From a virus (taxonomy: Duplodnaviria > Caudoviricetes), in IMG/VR virus record IMGVR_UViG_2630968332_000001, positions 1-64,000 of that record: a DNA stretch of 64,000 nucleotides; one strand, 5' to 3'. Both the position numbers and the translations under genes were made by a program. The stretch's first letter is position 1, and each line of letters starts with the position of its first letter. The notes below the pieces were generated by a model that saw only the letters and a list, made by a program, of their open reading frames with translations, did not search any database and had not been told where the DNA came from. This document shows, one piece after another, positions 8,349 to 61,966 of the stretch.

Positions 8349-8429
8349 AGGGTAGGTAGTTAGTACGAAGTGGACACTTTCAAGGTGCGACTCCTTGCTA
8401 TCCTATATCACTAAAAATAAATTTAGTGA
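8349..8429 (+). ncRNA. tRNA-like mini-element plus leader hairpin (E2)
   Basis: agggtag/ctatcct stem, caagg-TGCGACT-ccttg T-arm, tcactaaa hairpin. Confidence 0.7.
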
Positions 8430-8694: not shown

Positions 8695-8772
8695 AGGGTA
8701 GGTTAGTACATAGAAAAAATTCTATCAAGGTGCGACTCCTTGCTATCCTATATCACTAATCAATATTAGTGA
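8695..8772 (+). ncRNA. tRNA-like mini-element plus leader hairpin (E3)
   Basis: Same closing stem and T-arm as E2, different internal hairpin. Confidence 0.7.
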
Positions 8773-9144: not shown

Positions 9145-9224
9145 AAGGTAGATATTGGTATCAAGTGCAAACTTGTAAGGTTCGAATCCTTACTGCCTTA
9201 TATCACTAAAAATAAATTTAGTGA
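9145..9224 (+). ncRNA. tRNA-like mini-element plus leader hairpin (E4)
   Basis: gtaagg-TTCGAAT-ccttac canonical T-arm; aaggta/tgcctt stem. Confidence 0.75.
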
Positions 9225-11698: not shown

Positions 11699-11774
11699 AA
11701 GGTATCTAGTCGGTAGAAAGTTTACAACTTGTAAGGTTCGAGTCCTTACTACCTTATATATCCTAATCAGGATA
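11699..11774 (+). ncRNA. tRNA-like mini-element plus leader hairpin (E5)
   Basis: gtaagg-TTCGAGT-ccttac; aaggta/tacctt stem. Confidence 0.75.
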
Positions 11775-14832: not shown

Positions 14833-14923
14833 CAGGGTAATTGGTATAATACAATAAAATAATTTATTGCATTTTAAGGTTCGATTCCTTTTTACCTTGT
14901 CAGTTTGAAACACAATTCAAACT
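14833..14923 (+). ncRNA. tRNA-like mini-element plus leader hairpin (E6)
   Basis: cagggtaa/ttaccttg stem, aagg-TTCGATT-cctt T-arm. Confidence 0.65.
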
Positions 14924-24851: not shown

Positions 24852-24940
24852 GTTTATAATTATTGACTCAACATTATTATATGTTATAATAAAATAGTTG
24901 AGTTAAGAGTTTAGAGAATAAATGATTAACTTGCAAGAAT

Positions 24941-40636: not shown

Positions 40637-41047
40637 ATGGATAGACCATTGCAAAACATAAACGACATAGATGAATCTAAAATTATCGAAGTCTATGATA
40701 ATCTATTGTGGTATAAATTGCCATTAGATAATGGATGGACATCTTATACGCTGCGTGCGGTAGATTGTATGCACGATAACGTGGAAATCTATAACAAGGA
40801 TAATGTCTATTCTGACGATGGCTATACCCTCGGTGTTAATTTCTCACATATTCCTTCTGAACGCTATGACGAACTACGTCCCATTGTTAAATGGTATGGC
40901 TGCAAGATTGAAGACGATGGGGAAGTTGTATTAAACACTAATAAGATGAGATTTGGGAATCCATTGTTGAACATGACGTTAGCCCTTAGTACAATCGAAA
41001 ACTATTTTGAATTTAGTGGTAAGAAGGGAGATTATCCGTACAAATGA
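40637..41047 (+). CDS. Hypothetical protein (DUF1828-like)
   Basis: YSDDGYTL motif; AGGAGG RBS. Confidence 0.55.
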   Translation: MDRPLQNINDIDESKIIEVYDNLLWYKLPLDNGWTSYTLRAVDCMHDNVEIYNKDNVYSDDGYTLGVNFSHIPSERYDELRPIVKWYGCKIEDDGEVVLNTNKMRFGNPLLNMTLALSTIENYFEFSGKKGDYPYK

Positions 41048-41418
41048 CAAGTGCTGAAAGAGAGTTTAATAAATCAGTACGTAGATTAGACATGTACTTA
41101 GAAGATGGTAATATGGTCTCTGCTGACATTGAACTAAAATCTATGCGTAGAGTATATGATGAAATGAAGAAACTAGAAAGTCATAGTGTTACCTTCTGGC
41201 TTTTTGTTACAGCAGCTCTAGTTGTGTATATTGGTATGGGGTGGGGTAAGTATGAAATACCAACTATGCTAATGACAGGGCTAGAGGCAATATCATTTGC
41301 TTTGATGACTTATGTTTCTAATATAGTAGACAATTTCATTGATAATATCGAATACTGGGAAGACAAGTATAATCTGCATAAGGAGGTGAATAGACGAGTT
41401 GACAACAGTATCAACTAA
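41044..41418 (+). CDS. Membrane protein
   Basis: Two TM helices. Confidence 0.7.
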   Translation: MTSAEREFNKSVRRLDMYLEDGNMVSADIELKSMRRVYDEMKKLESHSVTFWLFVTAALVVYIGMGWGKYEIPTMLMTGLEAISFALMTYVSNIVDNFIDNIEYWEDKYNLHKEVNRRVDNSIN

Positions 41419-41659
41419 CAATGTAGTAACAGTATATACTAAGAATAATTGTCAGCAATGCAAAATGACAAAGAGAAAGTTGCAAGCTATGGGAGTTGAT
41501 TATCACGAATATAACGTAGATAACGACCCTAAAGCACTAGAATACCTATTAGAGAAAGGTTGGACTAGCTTACCTGTTGTAGTTACAGAAGATGATGTTT
41601 GGATGGGGCTGCGAATGGATAAGTTAAACAATCTTCAAAAAAAGATGAAGATTTCTTAG
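41399..41659 (+). CDS. nrdH: NrdH-like glutaredoxin
   Basis: VYTKNNCQQC, SLPVV, WMGLRMD. Confidence 0.9.
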   Translation: MTTVSTNNVVTVYTKNNCQQCKMTKRKLQAMGVDYHEYNVDNDPKALEYLLEKGWTSLPVVVTEDDVWMGLRMDKLNNLQKKMKIS

Positions 41660-41667
41660 TTTTTCTG

Positions 41668-41730
41668 TTGACTTTTATTTTTTATATGGTATTATAATAT
41701 ATGTAAGTTAAGAGTTAAGAGAATAAACGA
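41668..41730 (+). promoter_or_regulatory. Promoter of RNA locus with AGAGAATAAA leader motif
   Basis: TTGACT...TATAAT then gttaagagttaagagaataaa. Confidence 0.75.
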
Positions 41731-41813
41731 ATAACTCAAAGCTACAACAAAACAATTAAATAAATCTGTTAAATATGTTGAACTTAATGTAATTGTCCTT
41801 ACGTGAGTCAACA

Positions 41814-41891
41814 ATCGGATAGCTTAATGGCAGAGCGTACGAGTATGATAACGATACTTGTAAGGTTTGGTGTTCAATTCATCAATCCGAT
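41814..41891 (+). ncRNA. tRNA-like element with aberrant anticodon arm
   Basis: atcggat/atccgat stem, D-arm agcttaatggcagagc, T-loop TTCAATT, elongated middle arm. Confidence 0.65.
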
Positions 41892-41894
41892 ATT

Positions 41895-41988
41895 TGTCAC
41901 AGTGATATTTATTTTACGCATTCACAACGAGTGCCTCCTTGAATTTAAACTTATTTTTCTGAATTATGTATACCTAATCACTGTGACA
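41895..41988 (+). ncRNA. Stem-closed sRNA with anti-SD and anti-AUG loop
   Basis: Perfect 12-bp tgtcacagtgat/atcactgtgaca stem; loop has CAT and CCTCCTT. Confidence 0.55.
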
Positions 41989-42033
41989 CACCTCCAAGTT
42001 AGATTGGTAGGTGGGTAAAACGGTATTGCCCAT

Positions 42034-42102
42034 CTACATAGGGTTTGGTTAGAATGTTAACTTATAACTCCTTCCGTCCAGAAGTTGCCAAATCCTATGT
42101 AG
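42034..42102 (+). ncRNA. Stem-closed sRNA with anti-SD loop
   Basis: 15-bp stem; loop CTCCTTCC. Confidence 0.5.
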
Positions 42103-42313
42103 GTAGACAAAACTTAGTTTGCCTAAACAACTTTTGCAATTCTGAAAAGGATTTGTACTTCCAAATTTTTCTTATAATTGATGATATTCTATGGTTAGTG
42201 TATCTCTAGTCTATTTTGTTAATTACATTAATACTAATTTTAATATCATCTCTTTAAAACTTTTCTTTTATATTATTTTTGTTTTTATCTGTAAATGTCA
42301 GCCCATTAGGGTT

Positions 42314-42401
42314 GATATATCAGCGAGTAGGCGGTTGACTCTTGATATATTTTTTAAAAACCTTCTTATGTATTTGTATTTTGGCTACTCGTTGATATAT
42401 C
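42314..42401 (+). ncRNA. Stem-closed sRNA
   Basis: 17-bp stem; loop CCTTCTT. Confidence 0.45.
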
Positions 42402-42423
42402 TATCTTAATTGGAGGTGCAAAG

Positions 42424-42639
42424 ATGGATAAGCTAAGTAATATGATTGATAGATTTCTCTTGACGAGAACATGGTATGTAATTCAATGGTTGTTCATTAT
42501 GACCGTTGCGTTTGACCTAATCTTTTATAGCTATGGTTTCTGGACTAAGTTATTTTATTTAGCTGGTTTGGCAGCTGGGTTTAGCAATATAAAAGAATGG
42601 CACAAGAAACATATCTATTCTGTTAAGAGAAAACACTAA
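42424..42639 (+). CDS. Small membrane protein
   Basis: GGAGG RBS, two hydrophobic segments. Confidence 0.7.
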   Translation: MDKLSNMIDRFLLTRTWYVIQWLFIMTVAFDLIFYSYGFWTKLFYLAGLAAGFSNIKEWHKKHIYSVKRKH

Positions 42640-42670
42640 AACTACATAAGGCAGCTTTGATTGTTGCTAA

Positions 42671-42767
42671 AGGGAACGGGTTGGTTTTTCACATCCTTTC
42701 AATAAATACAGATAATTAACCCCTATTTACTAATACGATACTGACACAGTTTTTCGTCCCGTTCTCT
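42671..42767 (+). ncRNA. Stem-closed sRNA with anti-SD loop
   Basis: agggaacggg/cccgttctct; loop CATCCTTTC. Confidence 0.45.
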
Positions 42768-43005
42768 CTAGGAGCTATTAAAATGCTCTCCCAAAACAAG
42801 TCTACTATATGTTTAGAGTCTAGAGAATAAATGGTAGACATTTGGTATGTAAAATGTTGGACTGTCGGGAACACTATACCACACAAGCTAATATGCGGCT
42901 TTTACATACCACGCTCACAGACTTTAAAGGGAATGTGGGAGCGGATAGGCGAACGCGAATAGTGTAGTTAGTAAACCTATGCGTAATTATTTATCCTAGT
43001 TGGTA

Positions 43006-43078
43006 GTCATGTGGTGTATTCGGGTAACACGCTCGTCCTTGAAACGAGAGCAGTAAGGTTCAAGTCCTTGCTATGACA
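43006..43078 (+). tRNA. tRNA-Gln(TTG)-like, probably degenerate
   Basis: D-arm, ctcgt-CCTTGAA-acgag (C at position 33), taagg-TTCAAGT-ccttg; imperfect acceptor. Confidence 0.5.
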
Positions 43079-43180
43079 TAGAGGTGGAAACACCTCGAAA
43101 CAAACATTTATTAATTCGTTCATTTTTTATTAGTTGATTAGGTTTTGCGTATTAATCAACACTCCTTTTTAAATTATTTT

Positions 43181-43238
43181 GGTTGCCACAGGTGCAGTAA
43201 AGGTGCATTTTATAGGTTCGACTCCTACTGTGGTAATT
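43181..43238 (+). ncRNA. tRNA-like mini-element
   Basis: ttgccacag/ctgtggtaa stem, tagg-TTCGACT-ccta T-arm. Confidence 0.7.
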
Positions 43239-43395
43239 GGGGTAGAGCATGACTACCCCGAAAGCACAATAACGGTAAGTGCATAGATTTGTGTAATTTT
43301 TTGACATTGAATCTGAATTAATTCATGAACAGGTTCATTACGACTTACGGATTGGTTCATGATTTAAGATTTCCTCCTTTTGAATTAGAAGGTTC

Positions 43396-43453
43396 GCAAC
43401 GTAGCTCAACTGGTAGAGCAAAGGATGATGTGGGTTCGAGTCCCACCGTTGCA
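43396..43453 (+). ncRNA. Anticodon-arm-less tRNA-like element
   Basis: gcaacg/cgttgc acceptor, TAGCTCAACTGGTAGAGC D-arm, gtggg-TTCGAGT-cccac T-arm, only a ~10-nt linker. Confidence 0.8.
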
Positions 43454-43500
43454 ATTAGCCAATATGGCTATAAATATACAATAGAAAAGAGGTGAGATAG

Positions 43501-44757
43501 ATGAAGACAATGAGTGAGTTAAAATACCACTATGGCTTGAAGATGTGTATTCACCCTAGCACGAAGCAAAAGCAAATCATTAAGATGAACAGTGATGTAT
43601 CTAGGGCTGTATATAACGCTATGGTTGCGATTGATAAAGAGTTGTATCAACTCAAACAGGTAAAACTACCTATTGATACAATCCAAACACGTATTGCTGA
43701 ATTAGAAAAACGTAAGAAGGCTCAAAACTATTTAGCAACGCACTATACTTACATGAAACACCCTTATATTGATAGTCATTGTCGTTCTATGGCAATGCGT
43801 TCTTATAAAGCTGCATGGAATATGTTTAGAAAAGTTCATAACGTTGGTACACCTAATTTTCATAAGAAAACTTACGAGGAGAAGTATCAAACAAGTGGAA
43901 CTTATACGAGTAAGAAGAAACCAGTTAATATGTGGACTGGCTCAATTAGATTTGTAGACAATAAACATATTAATATTCCTAAGCTGGGTATTATTCGTGT
44001 GAGTGGTTCGTATAGAAAACTACTAGATAATAAAGATGATATTAGAATTGGCACAACTACTATTTCTAAAAATGCTTTTGGTATCTACTACGTTTCTATG
44101 CAGTTGGGTTCAGATACACCTTTTGTTAAAGAATTGCCTAAAACTAATTCTCAAGTTGGAATCGACTTGAATACAGATAACTTCTTAACAACAAGCGAAG
44201 GTAATGTTATAGCTAACCCGAGATTTTATAGAACTATCAAGGGTCGATTGGCTAAAGCACAACGTAAATTATCACGCAGACAAGTTAGAGCCAAGAAAGA
44301 AGGACGCTCCTTACGTGATAGCAAGAATTACCAAAAGCAACGCATAGTGGTATCAAAACTTATGAATAAAGTGCGTAATCAACGTAATAAATTCTTAGAT
44401 GAAATGTCAATAACACTTATCAAGAACCACGATTTGGTTGTGGCTGAAAATCTAAGAAGTAAAAATATGTTGAGAAATCACGCTTTGGCTATGTCTATTA
44501 GTGATGTAGGTTGGAGAACATTCCTACAAAAACTAGAATACAAAGCTGAATTATATGGTAAGACTTTTGTTACTGTAAATCCTAAGAATACTACACAAAC
44601 ATGTAGCGAATGTGGGCATGTTATGGGAACAAAAGATACGGATAAGCTAACACTAAAAGATAGAAGTTGGGCTTGTCCTAGCTGTAATACTTACCATATA
44701 CGTGATGTAAATGCAGCAAAGAATATCCTAGACAAAGGATTAAAACAATTAGCCTAG
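43501..44757 (+). CDS. tnpB: TnpB (IS200/IS605 type), CRISPR-adjacent, no tnpA
   Basis: GIDLN, VAENL, CSECG...CPSC, RDVNAAKNI: RuvC D-E-D and zinc finger intact. Confidence 0.93.
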   Translation: MKTMSELKYHYGLKMCIHPSTKQKQIIKMNSDVSRAVYNAMVAIDKELYQLKQVKLPIDTIQTRIAELEKRKKAQNYLATHYTYMKHPYIDSHCRSMAMRSYKAAWNMFRKVHNVGTPNFHKKTYEEKYQTSGTYTSKKKPVNMWTGSIRFVDNKHINIPKLGIIRVSGSYRKLLDNKDDIRIGTTTISKNAFGIYYVSMQLGSDTPFVKELPKTNSQVGIDLNTDNFLTTSEGNVIANPRFYRTIKGRLAKAQRKLSRRQVRAKKEGRSLRDSKNYQKQRIVVSKLMNKVRNQRNKFLDEMSITLIKNHDLVVAENLRSKNMLRNHALAMSISDVGWRTFLQKLEYKAELYGKTFVTVNPKNTTQTCSECGHVMGTKDTDKLTLKDRSWACPSCNTYHIRDVNAAKNILDKGLKQLA

Positions 44758-44759
44758 AA

Positions 44760-44938
44760 ATAGGTAGTCCGTTTGTCTGTTGCGGACTCAAAAGCATTTG
44801 GTAATTACCATGTAAGACCTTTATTTCAGATTTTTCTGATACAAAGGCAACGGTGTATCTAATGAAATTTTGGCAACCCTAAAAAATTAGGAGTTCCCAA
44901 AACCCTAGTACTGTGGGATTTGTTAGTCTGTTTTTAGT
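44760..44938 (+). ncRNA. omegaRNA/tracrRNA-like scaffold
   Basis: Structured region between tnpB stop and array; hairpin loop GTCTGT complementary to repeat end ACAGAC. Confidence 0.65.
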
Positions 44939-45155
44939 GTGTTACCCATATGTGCGTGGGGACAGACTGGAATACGTACAAACGATATACTCAAACTCAA
45001 GGTGTTACCCACATACGTGTGGGGCAGACTACGGCAAGTTTTTTAAAGACAATGAAGAATATGTGTTACCCATATGTGCGTGGGGACAGACTATATGTAG
45101 TTAAGAGTTTAGCGAACAAACGAAAGTGCTACTCATATGTGTCAAAGAACATATA
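44939..45155 (+). CRISPR. Mini CRISPR array: 3 repeats plus a degenerate 4th, 3 spacers
   Basis: GTGTTACCCATATGTGCGTGGGGACAGACT at 44939 and 45063, variant at 45002, degenerate at 45126; spacers 33, 32, 33 nt. Confidence 0.9.
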
Positions 45156-45165
45156 GCTATATTTA

Positions 45166-45207
45166 CTCACCTCGGTAGTTCTGTTCTGGTTCAACTCCAG
45201 AAGTGAG
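45166..45207 (+). ncRNA. tRNA-like mini-element closing the array
   Basis: ctcac/gtgag stem, tctgg-TTCAACT-ccaga T-arm. Confidence 0.6.
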
Positions 45208-45209
45208 CT

Positions 45210-45612
45210 TTGTACCAACTCCTGATACACCTCTAATCAAGGCAAGACCGTTATGCGTCTTTTAATGTAGGACAGGTGCGGTACGGCATCTCATTAGTAC
45301 GTTACTCGAGGGTACGGAAGGTGTTTTGCAAGGGATATACTATGCCAAGTGTGGAGGTTGATTACCTCGCAGCAGATAGCTACTGTTGTCATACGTGCGA
45401 GCTTGGTGTGTGTAGTTAGATGTGCCGATTATTTAGTAAGTTATCTCAAAGTGGCGAGATGACTTTTTCGCTGGGGATAAGCCCAATCGTTTAGATATAT
45501 CCACCAGTTGCTTTAGCCAGTTATCCTCTCGTAGCAGTGGAGTTCTTTCGCCGAACTTGCTAGGGAACAGATTGTTGAGGCGAATGCAATTTAATGTTCG
45601 ATAACTGGTTAT
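45210..45612 (+). ncRNA. Putative ~400-nt structured RNA
   Basis: GC-enriched, hairpin-rich, no credible ORF, bracketed by a tRNA-like element and tRNA-Ser. Confidence 0.55.
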
Positions 45613-45616
45613 ATTT

Positions 45617-45706
45617 GGTAAGTTACTCAAGTTGGTGAAGAGGACTGTTTGCTAAACAGTTAGGTCTGCGATTGTGGACGCAAGGGTTCGAGTCCCTTAC
45701 TTACCG
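45617..45706 (+). tRNA. tRNA-Ser(GCT)
   Basis: actgt-TTGCTAA-acagt, long variable arm, GGTTCGAGTCC, G discriminator, no encoded CCA. Confidence 0.9.
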
Positions 45707-45726
45707 TTAACAATTAAATATTAAAA

Positions 45727-46001
45727 TTCGTGTGTATATAGGAACAAATCTGATTGTATTTATAATTTTGGTTTGTACAAACAAAAATCTTATAATATTT
45801 ATAATTATCTTATTGTTTTAGAACAAATTGCGACACCTCCTTTACTAAACCGCCCGCTTTTTGTCCTAACATGCAATTTTTAAAATAAAAGCCTGTGAGT
45901 GAAAGTAGCTACTGTTTTAAGCAAGTGCCCCGCTACTTAAATTTTTAAAAGTGAAATTTTAGCAAAACTAAAGCCAGATTTGTTCCTACATGCACACGAA
46001 T
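45727..46001 (+). ncRNA. Long stem-closed RNA with anti-SD segment
   Basis: ~27-bp inverted repeat at the ends; internal CACCTCCTTT. Confidence 0.5.
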
Positions 46002-46013
46002 TAGAGAAAGAAG

Positions 46014-46739
46014 TTGGTTAGTATTATTTTCGTGAATGCCCCGATAGGTGCGGGTAAGACAAGCCTAACACGTATGCTCGTTGCAGATTTAGGCACTAAA
46101 GGTTTCTATGAAGAAGTTGATAAGATACCTATGCTCAAAGAGTTTTACGCACAAGGCGAAGAAAGTAGAAATGATTTAAGTTTTGCTTTACAAATCGCCT
46201 TTTTAAATTACCGTTTTGGACAATTACGTGAAGGACTGCATTTGGCTGAACGTGGAATTGTCAATACAGTATATGATAGTTCCTTGATTTCTGACGCTTT
46301 AATGAGTTTTAACTTGTATAAGCGTGGTGAATTTCCAGAAGTTATGTACAATCTTTACGTAAGTTTAAATCAAAATATGGTTTCTGATGTTGCGGGTCAT
46401 CCGTTCAATGGTTATCCAGATTTAATTGTATTCCTAGATATTCCATTTGATTTAATGCTAGACCATATTTCTAAGCGTGGTCGTGATATGGAAGATATAC
46501 GTAAAGACCCTAAGCTAGTAGATTACTATTATTCTGTATGGAACACATACAATTCATGGTACGACAGTTTCGGTCAAGCACCAGTAGTTCGTGTGGATAT
46601 GAGTAAATACGATTTCGTAAACAACTTATCCGACCGTAATACCGTACTTAATCTAATTGAACAAAAACTGGTTGATTTAGGTAAATTAACACAAGATGAG
46701 TTCGATAAAATCAAAGCAAAACGTGATAAGGAGGTGTAG
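46014..46739 (+). CDS. Deoxynucleoside kinase
   Basis: APIGAGKTSL, FALQIAFLNYRF, PDL, RGRDME. Confidence 0.9.
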   Translation: MVSIIFVNAPIGAGKTSLTRMLVADLGTKGFYEEVDKIPMLKEFYAQGEESRNDLSFALQIAFLNYRFGQLREGLHLAERGIVNTVYDSSLISDALMSFNLYKRGEFPEVMYNLYVSLNQNMVSDVAGHPFNGYPDLIVFLDIPFDLMLDHISKRGRDMEDIRKDPKLVDYYYSVWNTYNSWYDSFGQAPVVRVDMSKYDFVNNLSDRNTVLNLIEQKLVDLGKLTQDEFDKIKAKRDKEV

Positions 46740-54671: not shown

Positions 54672-54890
54672 GGTTTAGCACCTCCAAAGTATTGTTAAAA
54701 ATTCTCGGCACGAATTAACGGTATGTGCCTAAGCCCCACCACGCTCTCAAAAACGTGTGATAGCTCAAATCTGCTAATGTAAGGCGATTGACGTGACTAA
54801 TAAAGTACAATCCATTCATACCTTATTTTATATTGGTAGATTTATCTACCTATGACCTATTAACCTTTTACAATTAATAGACCCAGTGCA

Positions 54891-60408: not shown

Positions 60409-61966
60409 CTGCTATATAAAATGTGGAATAATGTAGAACAATATTTATTAGTTCTACATTATTAGAAAGAAATATAGTTTTTCCTTTCCTAGATTTTATT
60501 TACTACCGTCAACAACAGTATTCCCATATCCTAATAAAAGGGTAATGACATTGACTGTCTCTGATAACCTAAGGGTGTAGCCCACCCCGTTGTATTTTTA
60601 TGCTACTAAATTCAATAAATTCATAACCGCATTTTCATCTCTATCCATAATCGAACCACATTCATAACAAATATATTCGTTATGTTTTGTTCCATGCTTA
60701 CGATTACCATTAAGACCAACTTTATCTTCGCCAGTCTTGATATATCCACATTCAGAACATCTTTGTGTGCTTGGATAATATTGGTCTGCTAAGACTATTT
60801 CCTTGCCATACCAGCCAGCTTTATAAACCAATACTTGTCTAAAAGTTCCAAATAATGACCTTTGTAAACCTTTAGAAGCAACGTGTGTCATCTGCATTTT
60901 CTTCACATCTAAATCTTCGATTACGATTTTGTCGTAATCACTTACTAATTTAGTTGTAAATTTATGAATAATATCATGTTGGATATTAGCCACTTTACGA
61001 TAATCACGTTGCAACTTGGCTCTCGTTTTAACGTAATTATTCGACTTAGTTGCTTTCTTTCCATTAACAACACGTTTTCTAGCTAACTGACGTTGGTAAT
61101 GTTTGATACGTTTATAGAGTTTCTTTAGATGATTAGGCAATGTATTAACTTTACCTTCGGTATAGTTAAAATGACCGACATTAATATCTACAGCTGTTTT
61201 CTTACCAGTTTTAGTTTTCTTGGTTATTTCAACTTCAAAAGGTAAACTAGCCCAATATTTACCGTTTTCACGATAAATTGATACAACTTTTAAATCACCA
61301 TCTAAACTCTTAGCGCCTTTAAAACTAATACCATACCAAGTTTTAACCCCACGAGGTTTATCAAGTCTTAACTTGCCATTAATAATCTTGGCTCTGTCAG
61401 TTTTAAAACCTTGTCTAGTAGCTTTCTTAGATTTAAATTTAGGTTTACCCCAGTCTGGCATAGCTTTATTAAAAAAGTTGCTCCATGCTTTACCTAAATC
61501 AGAAATCGCTAACTGTAAGCAACGAGGTGATAATTGATACTGCCAATCCTCTTTATTAGCTACTAACTCATCACGCACCTTGCGTTCGCTAGGTTTTAAC
61601 TTTTTATCATCTAAAATCAACGAACTATCATACATATCATTCCATAAAGCTAAGCCTTGATTCCAACAATATCTACGATAATCACATAAATCATCAAGAA
61701 CTTTCTTCATGGTTTTATTTGGATAAAGTCTTACCTTTTGCGTTCTAATCATATATATCACCACCTTGCTTCACAAAATTGATATAATAAATTTATCTTC
61801 TATATTATACTAACTTTAGAGAAGTAAGTCAAGATATATTCATGAAAAAATGAAGATGTTTTATGTTTTTGAATTCATTGTTTTTAAGCCTATTTCACAT
61901 TTTTACTCTTTCTAGTAGGCTCGTTGTTCTATATAGTTCTACATAATTCTATATTTTTGTTAACAG
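60409..61966 (-). mobile_element. Non-autonomous tnpB-only element with imperfect inverted ends
   Basis: 31-nt ends ctgctatataaaatgtggaataatgtagaac vs ctgttaacaaaaatatagaattatgtagaac (24/31 by hand count). Confidence 0.75.
60598..61752 (-). CDS. tnpB: TnpB RNA-guided nuclease
   Basis: AVDIN, VIEDL, CSECG...CYECG, DRDENA. Confidence 0.93.
   Translation of the reverse strand: MIRTQKVRLYPNKTMKKVLDDLCDYRRYCWNQGLALWNDMYDSSLILDDKKLKPSERKVRDELVANKEDWQYQLSPRCLQLAISDLGKAWSNFFNKAMPDWGKPKFKSKKATRQGFKTDRAKIINGKLRLDKPRGVKTWYGISFKGAKSLDGDLKVVSIYRENGKYWASLPFEVEITKKTKTGKKTAVDINVGHFNYTEGKVNTLPNHLKKLYKRIKHYQRQLARKRVVNGKKATKSNNYVKTRAKLQRDYRKVANIQHDIIHKFTTKLVSDYDKIVIEDLDVKKMQMTHVASKGLQRSLFGTFRQVLVYKAGWYGKEIVLADQYYPSTQRCSECGYIKTGEDKVGLNGNRKHGTKHNEYICYECGSIMDRDENAVMNLLNLVA

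What the first reader, a model, noticed from the sequence alone, without database searches (positions are those of the whole stretch)
41814..43385. Array of putative anti-RBS small RNAs separated by tRNA-like elements
Seen: successive noncoding units expose anti-SD tracts (41934 CCTCCTT, 42068 CTCCTTCC, 42361 CCTTCTT, 42692 CATCCTTTC, 43161 ACTCCTTT, 43373 CCTCCTTT). The first four lie in loops closed by 10-17-bp stems, and the units are interleaved with tRNA-like elements. The reverse complement of the 41895 loop reads AAGGAGG-N12-ATG CGT AAA ATA AAT. Established: P1 C4 antisense RNA is matured by RNase P. Inference: a polycistronic battery of trans-acting translational silencers against host or rival-phage mRNAs, released by RNase P/Z.
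Basis: partly seen in the sequence, partly recalled or inferred. Interest (0 to 1): 0.85.

Follow-up and report, generated by a model that had tools for sequence, protein, structure and literature searches.

The report
Phage RNA island with tRNA-like punctuation
An uncultured gut phage carries a transcribed stretch in which tRNA-shaped elements that cannot decode alternate with folded RNA modules, several of which carry conserved mirror images of ribosome-binding sites; whether these silence translation is untested.

Summary
Observation confirmed. CTCCT/CCTCC sites number 6, against 1.06±1.02 in dinucleotide shuffles (1/1000).

Five relatives at 76-97% identity show a plus-strand structured RNA locus:
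- Compensatory changes exceed the controls.
- The plus strand folds better than the minus strand in 8/8 blocks.
- Minus-strand micro-ORFs are absent or not conserved.

The "battery" is heterogeneous. Tracts D, E and F are kept in 6/6 relatives and A in 5/6. B is lost in 2/6 and C is not conserved. Unit C is the 5' leader hairpin of a conserved 71-aa ORF. No gene-specific target exists in the phage genome; complementarity is generic, to Shine-Dalgarno plus A-rich leader.

In two metatranscriptomes the most abundant piece is an unnoticed ~150-nt RNA at 42841-42986 that has no CU tract.

The modules do not depend on the neighbouring TnpB/CRISPR-like array, because two relatives lack it.

Best reading: a tRNA-punctuated RNA island, with an anti-ribosome-binding-site function plausible but unproven. 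The scan has noted similar islands in other phages.

The parts
41668..41732 (+). Sigma-70-type promoter (TTGACT, 16 nt with TG, TATTAT) followed by a leader box (41699-41732) that recurs at other places in the genome
   Evidence: 10 of 12 matches, TG present; the box recurs at 24874, 32542, 45092 and 66946(-).
41814..41892 (+). tRNA-like element 1: acceptor, D and T arms, but a 9-bp extended anticodon arm ending in the loop GAUAACG, so it is non-decoding
   Evidence: Rfam tRNA model, 32.4 bits. ARAGORN does not call it. It is nearly invariant in 6 sequences, and its 3 variable pairs change only to G-U wobble (helices 2-5).
41896..41987 (+). Module A: an 11-12-bp closing stem, a small hairpin, then CCUCCUU (41934-41940) followed by a U/A-rich tail. 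The interior is variable with indels.
   Evidence: helix 6 (4 pairs changed on both sides) and helix 7. CCTCCT is present in 5 of 6 relatives, and CATCCT in L008.
41989..42013 (+). Hairpin CACCUCCAA / UUGGUAGGUG. RNAalifold prefers an alternative pairing of GGUGGG with CCCAUC.
   Evidence: Sequence. Invariant, so there is no covariation evidence.
42023..42113 (+). Module B: a 13-26-bp closing stem with CUCCUUCC (42068-42075) in the loop
   Evidence: I3; helix 11 (4 pairs changed on both sides). The loop motif is kept in 4 of 6. L015 and L016 have a different loop with UCUCCU elsewhere.
42302..42413 (+). Module C: a 17-29-bp stem-loop forming the 5' UTR of the 71-aa ORF. The loop tract CCUUCUU (42361-42367) is not conserved.
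   Evidence: I2; the loop reads CTCTTG in 3 relatives, CCTTC in 2 (the window included) and CCTCC in 1; 3 of 7 columns invariant.
42424..42639 (+). Conserved 71-aa ORF (GGAGGTG ribosome-binding site; two hydrophobic segments by eye); no family match
   Evidence: no Pfam or NCBIfam family; 8 clusters at 79-99% identity.
42650..42790 (+). Module D: a long imperfect closing stem (28 predicted pairs) around a loop of about 77 nt that contains CAUCCUUUC (42692-42700)
   Evidence: UCCUUU is invariant in 6 of 6, but no more conserved than half of the loop windows (29 of 58).
42841..42990 (+). RNA-X: a three-hairpin RNA (H1 42843-42854/42900-42911, H2 42914-42919/42934-42939, H3 42941-42949/42976-42984) without a CU tract. 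It is the most abundant piece in the RNA libraries. The H1 interior exists in two allelic forms.
   Evidence: depth 190.5 (X17) and 32.1 (X16), against 4-15 and 0-2.6 on tnpB, while the DNA run X1 is flat; 1 change in 3 close relatives; the second form occurs in L014 and L016.. The strand is inferred from the fold comparison, not from the reads.
43006..43078 (+). tRNA-Gln(UUG). The same site holds a UUA (ochre-suppressor type) anticodon in L006, L015 and L016, and a degenerate arm in L014.
43081..43184 (+). Module E: hairpin GAGGUG-GAAA-CACCUC (43081-43096), hairpin 43133-43160, then ACUCCUUU (43161-43168) with a U/A-rich tail that runs up to the next tRNA-like element
   Evidence: helices 5 and 6. 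The tract is invariant in 6 of 6; only 3 of 77 windows are as conserved. Predicted unpaired probability 0.64.
43185..43235 (+). Mini tRNA-like element: acceptor stem, one hairpin and a T arm with the loop UUCGACU
   Evidence: helices 7-9 (5 pairs changed on both sides). Only 16 bits, E 2.3, with model R1. Not called by ARAGORN or Rfam.
43239..43394 (+). Module F: hairpin 43239-43259, a variable spacer, hairpin 43323-43362, then UUUCCUCCUUUU (43370-43381). Its CCUU can pair with AAGG at 43389-43392, just 5' of the next tRNA-like element.
   Evidence: helices 10, 13 and 14. The tract is invariant in 6 of 6; 11 of 129 windows are as conserved. An RNA-library contig of a diverged relative (two insertions, four substitutions) covers 43364-43456 at depth 27.
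43395..43454 (+). tRNA-like element with no anticodon arm: 6-bp acceptor stem, D arm, a 10-12-nt linker and T arm
   Evidence: Rfam tRNA model, 46.1 bits, with 17 model positions replaced by 5. The acceptor stem is fully recoded in L015 and L016 (4 pairs changed on both sides), as is 1 T-stem pair (helices 15, 17).

Best explanation
Window 41.67-43.46 kb is a plus-strand "RNA island" of an uncultured gut phage of about 129 kb. A strong promoter (41668) drives one transcript. On it, one decoding-type tRNA and three non-decoding tRNA-like elements alternate with stem-closed RNA modules, one small ORF and an abundant RNA of about 150 nt (RNA-X).

Shown:
- The folds are conserved, with compensatory changes, and are strand-specific.
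- Four CU-rich tracts are conserved.
- Those tracts are mirror images of the phage's own ribosome-binding regions (A-rich leader plus Shine-Dalgarno).
- Parts of the island are RNA-enriched in two metatranscriptomes.

Inferred:
- The host tRNA-processing enzymes RNase P and RNase Z cut at the tRNA-like elements. All four have discriminator A and no encoded CCA.
- These cuts release the modules. For E and F this would leave the CU tract in a 3' tail.
- The tracts act by pairing with Shine-Dalgarno/leader sequences. This would be generic damping of translation initiation, in trans or within the precursor, not gene-specific silencing.

My sub-confidences: plus-strand structured RNA island about 0.85; tRNA-like elements as processing signals about 0.6; an anti-ribosome-binding-site role for the CU tracts about 0.3.
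For: - Promoter and repeated leader box.
- tRNA-like elements.
- Covariation: alignment A5 has 11 pairs changed on both sides against 5.9±1.5 in shuffles (0/500) and 0-2 in slid controls. A8 has 21 against 10.8±2.2 (0/500) and 1-3 slid.
- Strand: the consensus fold energy is better on the plus strand in 8 of 8 blocks.
- Enrichment of CU motifs: 1/1000 shuffles.
- A weight matrix built from 83 predicted translation-initiation regions finds 13 antisense hits in 1-50 kb at threshold 8. Five lie in the 1.57-kb finding and two more at 45168 and 45834. At threshold 10, all 5 hits lie in 41.9-45.9 kb.
- Mean duplex energy with the 83 initiation regions beats dinucleotide shuffles for A (3/100), E (3/100), F (2/100) and C (1/100).
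- Conservation: E and F tracts are invariant in 6/6 and among the best-kept unpaired windows (3/77, 11/129). UCCUUU in D is kept 6/6. CCUCCU in A is kept 5/6 inside a loop with only 27% invariant columns.
- Minus-strand ORFs: none at B and D and essentially none at C (one TTG giving 8 aa in L008 only); unrelated peptides of 3-15 aa at A; the frame is lost at F.
- RNA libraries: RNA-X at 190.5 and 32.1, F tail plus tRNA-like element at 27, while the DNA run is flat at about 12.
- Independence from TnpB: L015 and L016 keep all modules without it.
Against: - No extended, gene-specific complementarity in the phage genome. Complement hits are no better than same-sense hits.
- Tails B and D pair no better than shuffles (64/100 and 20/100).
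- The B tract is lost in 2/6 relatives and the C tract is not conserved.
- Predicted accessibility is low for A (0.03), B (0.07) and F (0.09). Part of F's CCUU pairs with a neighbouring AAGG (helix 14, invariant).
- Preference for early-gene leaders is weak: A p=0.07, E p=0.01, none for B, D and F.
- The most abundant RNA of the island has no CU tract.
- A generic anti-Shine-Dalgarno RNA would also hit the phage's own messages and would need high abundance.
- Contigs give no strand, ends or processing sites.
- Only six related sequences were compared, and several changes are shared by descent.
Confidence: 0.4

Rival explanations
1. A processing and stability island only. The tRNA-like elements and long stems are cutting and protection signals (RNase P/Z; RNase III-type for the 17-28-bp stems) for the tRNA, the ORF, RNA-X and the downstream tnpB message. 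The CU tracts would be relics, flipped or mirrored pieces of the phage's own gene leaders, or binding sites for a protein. They would have no anti-ribosome-binding-site role.
For: - Heterogeneity of the units: C is a 5' UTR hairpin, and the B tract is lost in 2/6.
- Loop interiors are swapped as cassettes between conserved stems: RNA-X H1 has two forms, and the module at 45727-46000 has a different interior in L006 and L015.
- No specific target was found.
- The abundant RNA lacks a CU tract.
- The D tract is no better conserved than its surroundings.
- An earlier scan note on another phage reached this reading (e1-5840559; an unchecked AI note).
Against: - E and F tracts are invariant in 6/6 while their flanks change, including replacement of the upstream hairpin in L015 and L016.
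- CCUCCU persists in a loop that is otherwise 27% invariant.
- The motifs are clustered and enriched on one strand.
- No loop shows sequence homology to a particular leader beyond 15 AT-rich bases.
Confidence: 0.33
2. Decoys that mimic the 3' tail of 16S rRNA. Each is a hairpin followed by a single-stranded (CA)C-CUCCUUU, which after RNase P cleavage would sit near a 3' end. Such a mimic would titrate a factor that recognises that tail, either a nuclease or toxin of a defence system or a ribosome-maturation or hibernation factor.
For: - E and F have the layout hairpin, then CU tract, then tRNA-like element.
- Several tracts extend the core to CAC...UCCUUU: D CACAUCCUUUC, E ACACUCCUUUU, and 45834 CACCUCCUUU. 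This resembles the Firmicute 16S end, which I recall rather than computed.
Against: - The same extension is expected for a mirror image of the phage's GGAGGTG-type ribosome-binding sites.
- The host 16S sequence was not compared.
- No partner protein was identified.
- A and F lack the CAC.
Confidence: 0.08
3. Minus-strand expression. The GGAG-like sequences would be real ribosome-binding sites of tiny minus-strand ORFs (leader peptides or type I toxin-like genes), and the stems would belong to minus-strand RNAs.
For: - On the minus strand, A and F have AGGAGG followed by ATG or GTG at 8-14 nt in all six sequences.
- The first 14 residues of the F ORF are shared by four close relatives.
Against: - B and D have no start codon within 2-16 nt in 6/6, and C in 5/6 (one TTG giving 8 aa in L008). 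E has only TTG at +2 in four sequences.
- The A peptides are 3-15 aa and unrelated. The F frame breaks after MNQ in L015 and L016, giving 7 aa.
- The minus strand folds worse in 8/8 blocks.
- Every called gene from 1 to about 50 kb, and all the tRNAs, lie on the plus strand.
- No good minus-strand promoter lies upstream of these sites.
Confidence: 0.07
4. DNA-level elements. The closing stems would be terminal inverted repeats of miniature transposons or invertible segments, and the mirrored ribosome-binding sites would be flipped promoter or ribosome-binding cassettes.
For: - Inverted repeats of 11-35 nt flank variable interiors.
- The region is a hotspot for TnpB insertions: L008 has one at 42148-42319, and L015 and L016 carry 1.4-kb insertions that I did not examine.
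Against: - Mismatches in the stems are biased towards G-U on the plus strand, which a DNA repeat would not show (8/8 blocks).
- No interior is inverted among the six sequences.
- No strand-switch joints were reported in four runs (contigs only).
Confidence: 0.05
5. Guide-RNA parts (tracrRNA- or omega-RNA-like) for the adjacent TnpB-like nuclease and its CRISPR-like array.
For: - RNA-X begins like the scaffold downstream of tnpB (24 nt at 75% identity, D5).
- It contains ACAGACU, the 3' end of the array repeat.
- Both RNA-X and the scaffold are abundant in the RNA libraries.
Against: - L015 and L016 keep RNA-X and all the modules but have no TnpB or array at this site.
- L014 has the TnpB but the other RNA-X interior, which lacks the candidate anti-repeat.
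- The 180-nt scaffold between tnpB and the first repeat already supplies a pairing partner (AGUCUGU) for the repeat end.
Confidence: 0.03

Closest known systems
C4 antisense RNA of phages P1 and P7 (and the CI RNA of P4)
   Same: A phage small RNA cut out of a longer transcript by RNase P. It acts by pairing with the ribosome-binding region of a target message. C4 as an RNase P substrate: Hartmann et al. 1995, as cited in PMC11143913 (passages read). The mode of action and the P4 case are recalled.
   Different: C4 has two loops with specific complementarity to sites in its own operon. Here no specific target was found, pairing is generic, the processing signals are separate tRNA-like elements, and no Rfam family other than tRNA matches.
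The phage T4 tRNA region with its small stable RNAs (species 1 and 2)
   Same: A phage tRNA cluster co-transcribed with small stable RNAs of unknown function and matured by the tRNA-processing enzymes. T4 tRNA precursors and RNase P: PMC11143913, passages read. Species 1 and 2 are recalled.
   Different: Here only one element of four in the finding can decode. The others have lost or remodelled the anticodon arm yet are conserved with covariation.
tRNA punctuation and t-elements (mitochondrial transcripts; the tRNA-like end of MALAT1)
   Same: tRNA-shaped, non-decoding structures used as RNase P/Z cutting signals inside long transcripts. Plant mitochondrial t-elements: PMC1920247, search listing and start of abstract only. 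The rest is recalled.
   Different: The setting is a bacteriophage. Processing has not been shown here.
Firmicute regulatory RNAs with C-rich loops that bind Shine-Dalgarno sequences (for example RNAIII, RsaE/RoxS)
   Same: Pyrimidine-rich, unpaired motifs next to hairpins that pair with ribosome-binding sites (recalled, not tested).
   Different: Those RNAs have defined targets and use UCCC/CCCC motifs. Here the tracts copy the whole anti-Shine-Dalgarno sequence plus a U-rich tail and show no specific target.
Phage and prophage tRNA islands carrying the large structured RNAs ROOL or GOLLD
   Same: Structured noncoding RNAs of unknown function lying next to tRNAs in phages of Lactobacillales and gut bacteria (recalled; also named in an earlier scan note).
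   Different: No match to either family, or to any family but tRNA, at E up to 1 in 41000-46500.

Membership tests
tRNA (Rfam RF00005), as decoding tRNA | Cloverleaf with acceptor, D and T arms, scoring above the family threshold | tested here: met
   43006-43078 scores 38.3 bits, 43395-43454 scores 46.1 bits and 41814-41892 scores 32.4 bits, against a threshold of 29. 43185-43235 is not detected.
tRNA (Rfam RF00005), as decoding tRNA | A 5-bp anticodon stem with a 7-nt loop that presents an anticodon | tested here: not met
   Met only by 43006-43078 (ARAGORN). In 43395-43454 the arm is replaced by 5 nt. In 41814-41892 it is a 9-bp stem with the loop GAUAACG (alignments). 43185-43235 lacks one arm.
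C4-type antisense RNA (P1/P7) | Extended complementarity of the loops to a specific target ribosome-binding region | tested here: not met
   In blastn-short of ten loops against the whole 129-kb genome, the best complement hit is 15 AT-rich bases, and complement hits are no better than same-sense hits.
C4-type antisense RNA (P1/P7) | Maturation by RNase P | not testable with these tools
   Only assembled contigs of the RNA runs were available; they show no RNA ends.
C4-type antisense RNA (P1/P7) | Similarity of sequence and structure to the described family | tested here: not met
   No Rfam family other than tRNA matches at E up to 1 in 41000-46500. That Rfam holds a C4 model is recalled.
ROOL / GOLLD large phage RNAs | Match to the covariance model | tested here: not met
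   no match.
Type I toxin-antitoxin or minus-strand micro-ORF | A small ORF conserved in frame and sequence behind the Shine-Dalgarno-like site | tested here: not met
   B and D have no start codon in 6/6, and C in 5/6 (one TTG giving 8 aa in L008). A gives unrelated peptides of 3-15 aa. F loses its frame in 2/6.
tracrRNA / omega RNA of the adjacent TnpB-like nuclease | Co-occurrence with the nuclease and pairing with its repeat | tested here: not met
   L015 and L016 keep the modules without TnpB or array. The candidate anti-repeat is absent from L014, which does have the TnpB.
Bacterial Y RNA (YrlA-type tRNA mimic) | A neighbouring or co-encoded Ro60 (TROVE) protein, often with RtcB | tested here: not met
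   No TROVE or RtcB match in the 129-kb phage record; the controls were found. The host genome was not tested.
Intrinsic terminators | A GC-rich hairpin directly followed by a U run | tested here: not met
   The scan of 41000-46200 finds one site, at 43777 inside tnpB, and none in the finding. In L015 and L016 the E hairpin and its U run are 18 nt apart.

The most novel reading that the evidence does not exclude
The phage makes a set of small RNAs that the host's tRNA-processing enzymes cut out at non-decoding tRNA-like elements. Their single-stranded tails copy the messenger-binding tail of 16S rRNA plus a U-rich stretch. These RNAs would compete with ribosomes for Shine-Dalgarno/leader regions, giving the phage an RNA-only way to damp or re-programme translation initiation. 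Possible uses are shutting off its own A-rich-leader early genes, or host or rival-phage messages.
Probability: 0.2. Interest if true: 0.85.

Novelty: new variant of a known kind. Interest (0 to 1): 0.55.

Why it matters
Phage tRNA regions are usually read as codon-supply kits. Here most of the "tRNAs" cannot decode, yet they are kept by selection. They sit between conserved folded RNAs, one of which is far more abundant in gut metatranscriptomes than the neighbouring genes.

If the tRNA-like elements are cutting signals, this is mitochondria-style transcript punctuation in a bacteriophage. If the conserved mirror-image ribosome-binding tracts really pair with messages, phages would have an RNA-only means of global translational control.

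Both ideas can be tested directly with small-RNA sequencing and reporter assays once a host is identified. The host may be of the Ligilactobacillus type. That is an inference from the salivarius-1 RNA match and the chicken-gut runs.

The scan has flagged similar islands in unrelated phages, so the pattern may be general.

Tried and rejected
- **RNA-X as tracrRNA for the TnpB/array.** Rejected: L015 and L016 lack the TnpB, and L014 has the other RNA-X interior.
- **Y-RNA reading.** No Ro60 or RtcB in the phage.
- **Known RNA families.** Only tRNA matches in 41000-46500. In 1-41000 only three sub-threshold chance-level hits appear.
- **Public phage records.** blastn finds no match for 41660-43500. 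The nearest cultured relatives of a helicase gene are at 33.5% identity.
- **One family for all tRNA-like elements.** My model R1, built from five early-region elements, recovers only those five (E at most 6.5e-8). 43185-43235 reaches 16 bits, E 2.3, and the other six of the 12 listed matches are at chance level. An earlier 7-sequence alignment was out of register and was dropped.
- **Early-gene-specific antisense.** Weak: A p=0.07, E p=0.01, and none for B, D and F.
- **Initiator-tRNA-like C1-A72 in 43395-43454.** Dropped, because position 1 is A in relatives.
- **Wider relatives of the anticodon-less element.** The 24-nt pattern hit two unrelated high-GC phages, both with ordinary tRNAs.
- **Wider relatives of RNA-X.** The 19-nt pattern gave 2 genome hits and 2 new viral hits, none with further similarity; these are chance matches.
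- **RNA-X fold stability.** The single-sequence fold is no more stable than shuffles (z -0.19).
- **Parts without cover in the RNA-run contigs.** There was none on 41721-41962, 42326-42688 or 43052-43293 in X16 and X17. Contigs show presence, not absence, so this is not used as evidence.
- **Scan notes on look-alike stretches in other genomes.** The look-up by place (scope relatives) returned nothing to show.
- **Supplementary files of papers.** Not consulted.


Full report
**Setting.** The window is the first 64 kb of a 129,218-bp virus record that CheckV rates complete. All ORFs of 100 aa or more from 1 to about 50 kb lie on the plus strand. No public phage record matches the stretch by blastn. 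A helicase gene finds only distant relatives, at 33.5% identity. The finding lies between a glutaredoxin/NrdH-like gene (41399-41659) and a TnpB-family gene (43501-44757). A near-consensus promoter sits at 41668-41695. It is followed by a leader box that recurs at four other places in the genome.

**Observation.** Every motif, stem and tRNA-like element is at the stated place. The CU motifs are enriched: 6 distinct CTCCT/CCTCC sites against 1.06±1.02 in 1000 dinucleotide shuffles (1/1000). The sense Shine-Dalgarno motifs are not enriched. In the 41.8 kb upstream, the plus strand has only 7 such sites. There are two corrections. Module D's closing stem is about 28 pairs, not 10-17. The series is also interrupted by a conserved 71-aa ORF with a good ribosome-binding site, so unit C is that ORF's 5' UTR hairpin.

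**Structure and strand.**
- On alignment A5 (41800-42160), 98.9% of cells pair. Eleven pairs changed on both sides, against 5.9±1.5 in shuffles (0/500) and 0-2 in slid controls.
- On alignment A8 (43000-43470), 97.5% of cells pair, with 21 such pairs against 10.8±2.2 (0/500) and 1-3 slid.
- The closing stems of A and B each carry 4 compensated pairs. The acceptor stem of the anticodon-less element is fully recoded in L015 and L016.
- Each strand of eight blocks was folded independently. The plus strand was more stable in 8 of 8. This is expected if G-U pairs are tolerated in a plus-strand RNA. It is not expected for a DNA repeat or a minus-strand RNA.
- With six related sequences these numbers show consistency with a fold, not proof. 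Several changes are shared by L006/L008 or by L015/L016.

**The CU tracts.**
- Tract A: CCTCCT in 5/6 relatives and CATCCT in L008.
- Tract B: kept in 4/6. L015 and L016 have another loop, with TCTCCT elsewhere.
- Tract C: not conserved.
- Tract D: TCCTTT kept in 6/6, but not unusually conserved for its loop (29/58 windows).
- Tract E: invariant in 6/6 (3/77 windows as conserved), although the hairpin before it is replaced in L015 and L016.
- Tract F: invariant in 6/6 (11/129 windows as conserved).

In one search the column count for A is spoilt by gap placement.

On the minus strand there is no start codon at B and D, and essentially none at C (one TTG giving 8 aa in L008 only). A gives unrelated peptides of 3-15 aa, E has a TTG only 2 nt after the motif, and F has an ORF whose frame breaks after three codons in L015 and L016.

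**What the tracts resemble.** The reverse complements of A, E and F look like the phage's own translation-initiation regions, an A-rich leader followed by GGAGG/GGAGTG. A weight matrix built from 83 predicted initiation regions finds 13 antisense hits in 1-50 kb at threshold 8. Five lie inside the finding and two more at 45168 and 45834. At threshold 10, all five hits lie between 41.9 and 45.9 kb. Mean predicted duplex energy with the 83 regions beats dinucleotide shuffles for A, C, E and F (1-3 of 100 shuffles reach it) but not for B (64/100) or D (20/100). Complementarity is generic:
- No loop has an extended match to one particular site.
- Preference for the A-rich early leaders is weak.
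- Predicted accessibility is high for C, D and E and low for A, B and F.

**Expression.** Only assembled contigs were available, so strand and ends cannot be read.
- In two metatranscriptome runs from two studies, the deepest contigs lie on 42785/42841-42986: depth 32.1 in X16 and 190.5 in X17, against 0-2.6 and 4-15 on tnpB.
- The same runs also cover the tnpB 3' end, scaffold and first repeat (16.5; up to 63).
- In X17 a contig of a diverged relative (two insertions, four substitutions) covers 43364-43456, the F tail plus the tRNA-like element, at depth 27.
- A DNA run is flat at about 12.

The abundant piece, here called RNA-X, is a three-hairpin RNA with no CU tract. It shows one change among the three closest sequences and has two allelic interiors in its first hairpin. 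It is confined to this phage group.

**Relation to the TnpB/array.** Downstream of tnpB lie three repeats of about 31 nt spaced 61-63 nt apart. Relatives have four or more repeats, and every spacer differs. L015 and L016 lack tnpB and the array yet keep every module. Homology with the TnpB-bearing genomes ends just after the tRNA-like element. The island is therefore older than the nuclease and independent of it.

**Mechanism.** All four tRNA-like elements have discriminator A and no encoded CCA. By established knowledge of Firmicute tRNA maturation (recalled), that is the RNase Z-type precursor form. I therefore read them as RNase P/Z cutting signals. For E and F, RNase P cleavage would leave the CU tract in a 3' tail behind a hairpin. 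The best-supported role for the conserved tracts is pairing with Shine-Dalgarno/leader sequences. I put this at only about 0.3, because the pairing is generic and two of the six units fail the tests. The main rival is that the tracts are relics or protein sites in an island whose function is processing, stability and the production of RNA-X and the tRNA.

**Comparison and verdict.** The island works most like the RNase P-matured antisense C4 RNA of P1/P7 (PMC11143913, passages), the T4 tRNA region and organellar tRNA punctuation. It is not a member of any described RNA family other than tRNA. Earlier notes of this scan describe similar tRNA-like modules and mirrored ribosome-binding sites in other phages. 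They are unchecked AI notes and were used as leads only. Verdict: a real, conserved and partly expressed RNA island; a new variant of a known kind. The translational-silencer reading remains open.

Noticed in passing
window 43457-45125: A TnpB-family gene (418 aa) is followed by a conserved 180-nt scaffold and a CRISPR-like array: repeats of about 31 nt at 44938, 45001 and 45062, with spacers of about 32 nt. L006 has 4 repeats and L008 at least 4. All spacers differ between the three, and further first spacers appear in metagenome and metatranscriptome contigs. L015 and L016 lack the whole unit. The unit starts right after the tRNA-like element. The sequence after the last repeat resembles the promoter leader box (D1).
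   Followed up: partly
window 43006-43078; L006 7646-7718; L015 4096-4168; L016 5500-5572: The one decoding tRNA of the island is Gln(UUG) in the window and in L008. It has the anticodon UUA (reads UAA, suppressor type) in L006, L015 and L016, and a degenerate anticodon arm in L014. By my reading of the sequence, position 33 is C rather than U. I did not check whether any genes carry in-frame TAA.
   Followed up: no
window 8349-8405, 8695-8750, 9145-9200, 11699-11756, 14834-14899: Five intergenic mini tRNA-like elements (acceptor stem, short hairpins, T arm with UUCGA) lie in the early region. Each is followed by a hairpin, an A-rich leader and a ribosome-binding site. They form one sequence family (54-74 bits with model R1), and no further member exists in the 129-kb genome.
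   Followed up: partly
L008 4605-5774; L015 1821-3261; L016 3724-5133: The island is an insertion hotspot. L008 carries a second TnpB (389 aa) in place of window 42148-42319. L015 has a 1.44-kb insertion at the same place, and L016 a 1.4-kb insertion just after the 71-aa ORF. The L015 and L016 insertions were not examined.
   Followed up: partly
window 45727-46000: A further stem-closed module lies after tRNA-Ser: a 35-nt inverted repeat (83%) around 204 nt that contain CACCUCCUUU at 45834, the best antisense ribosome-binding-site hit of the first 50 kb. L006 and L015 keep the stem but have an unrelated interior.
   Followed up: partly
window 45166-45214: Another tRNA-like minihelix (5-bp closing stem plus a T arm with the loop UUCAACU), conserved in L015.
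   Followed up: no
window 60509-60567 and 54731-54785: Rfam matches to Transposase-1 RNA (72.4 bits), directly downstream of a second TnpB gene (60598-61764, minus strand), and to salivarius-1 RNA (56.3 bits).
   Followed up: no
window 41399-41659: A glutaredoxin/NrdH-like gene lies about 1.8 kb upstream of the TnpB-like nuclease in the same orientation. A preprint reports that host thioredoxin activates a phage-encoded miniature Cas12 (10.1101/2025.01.20.633832; abstract and outline read). The link is speculative and untested.
   Followed up: no
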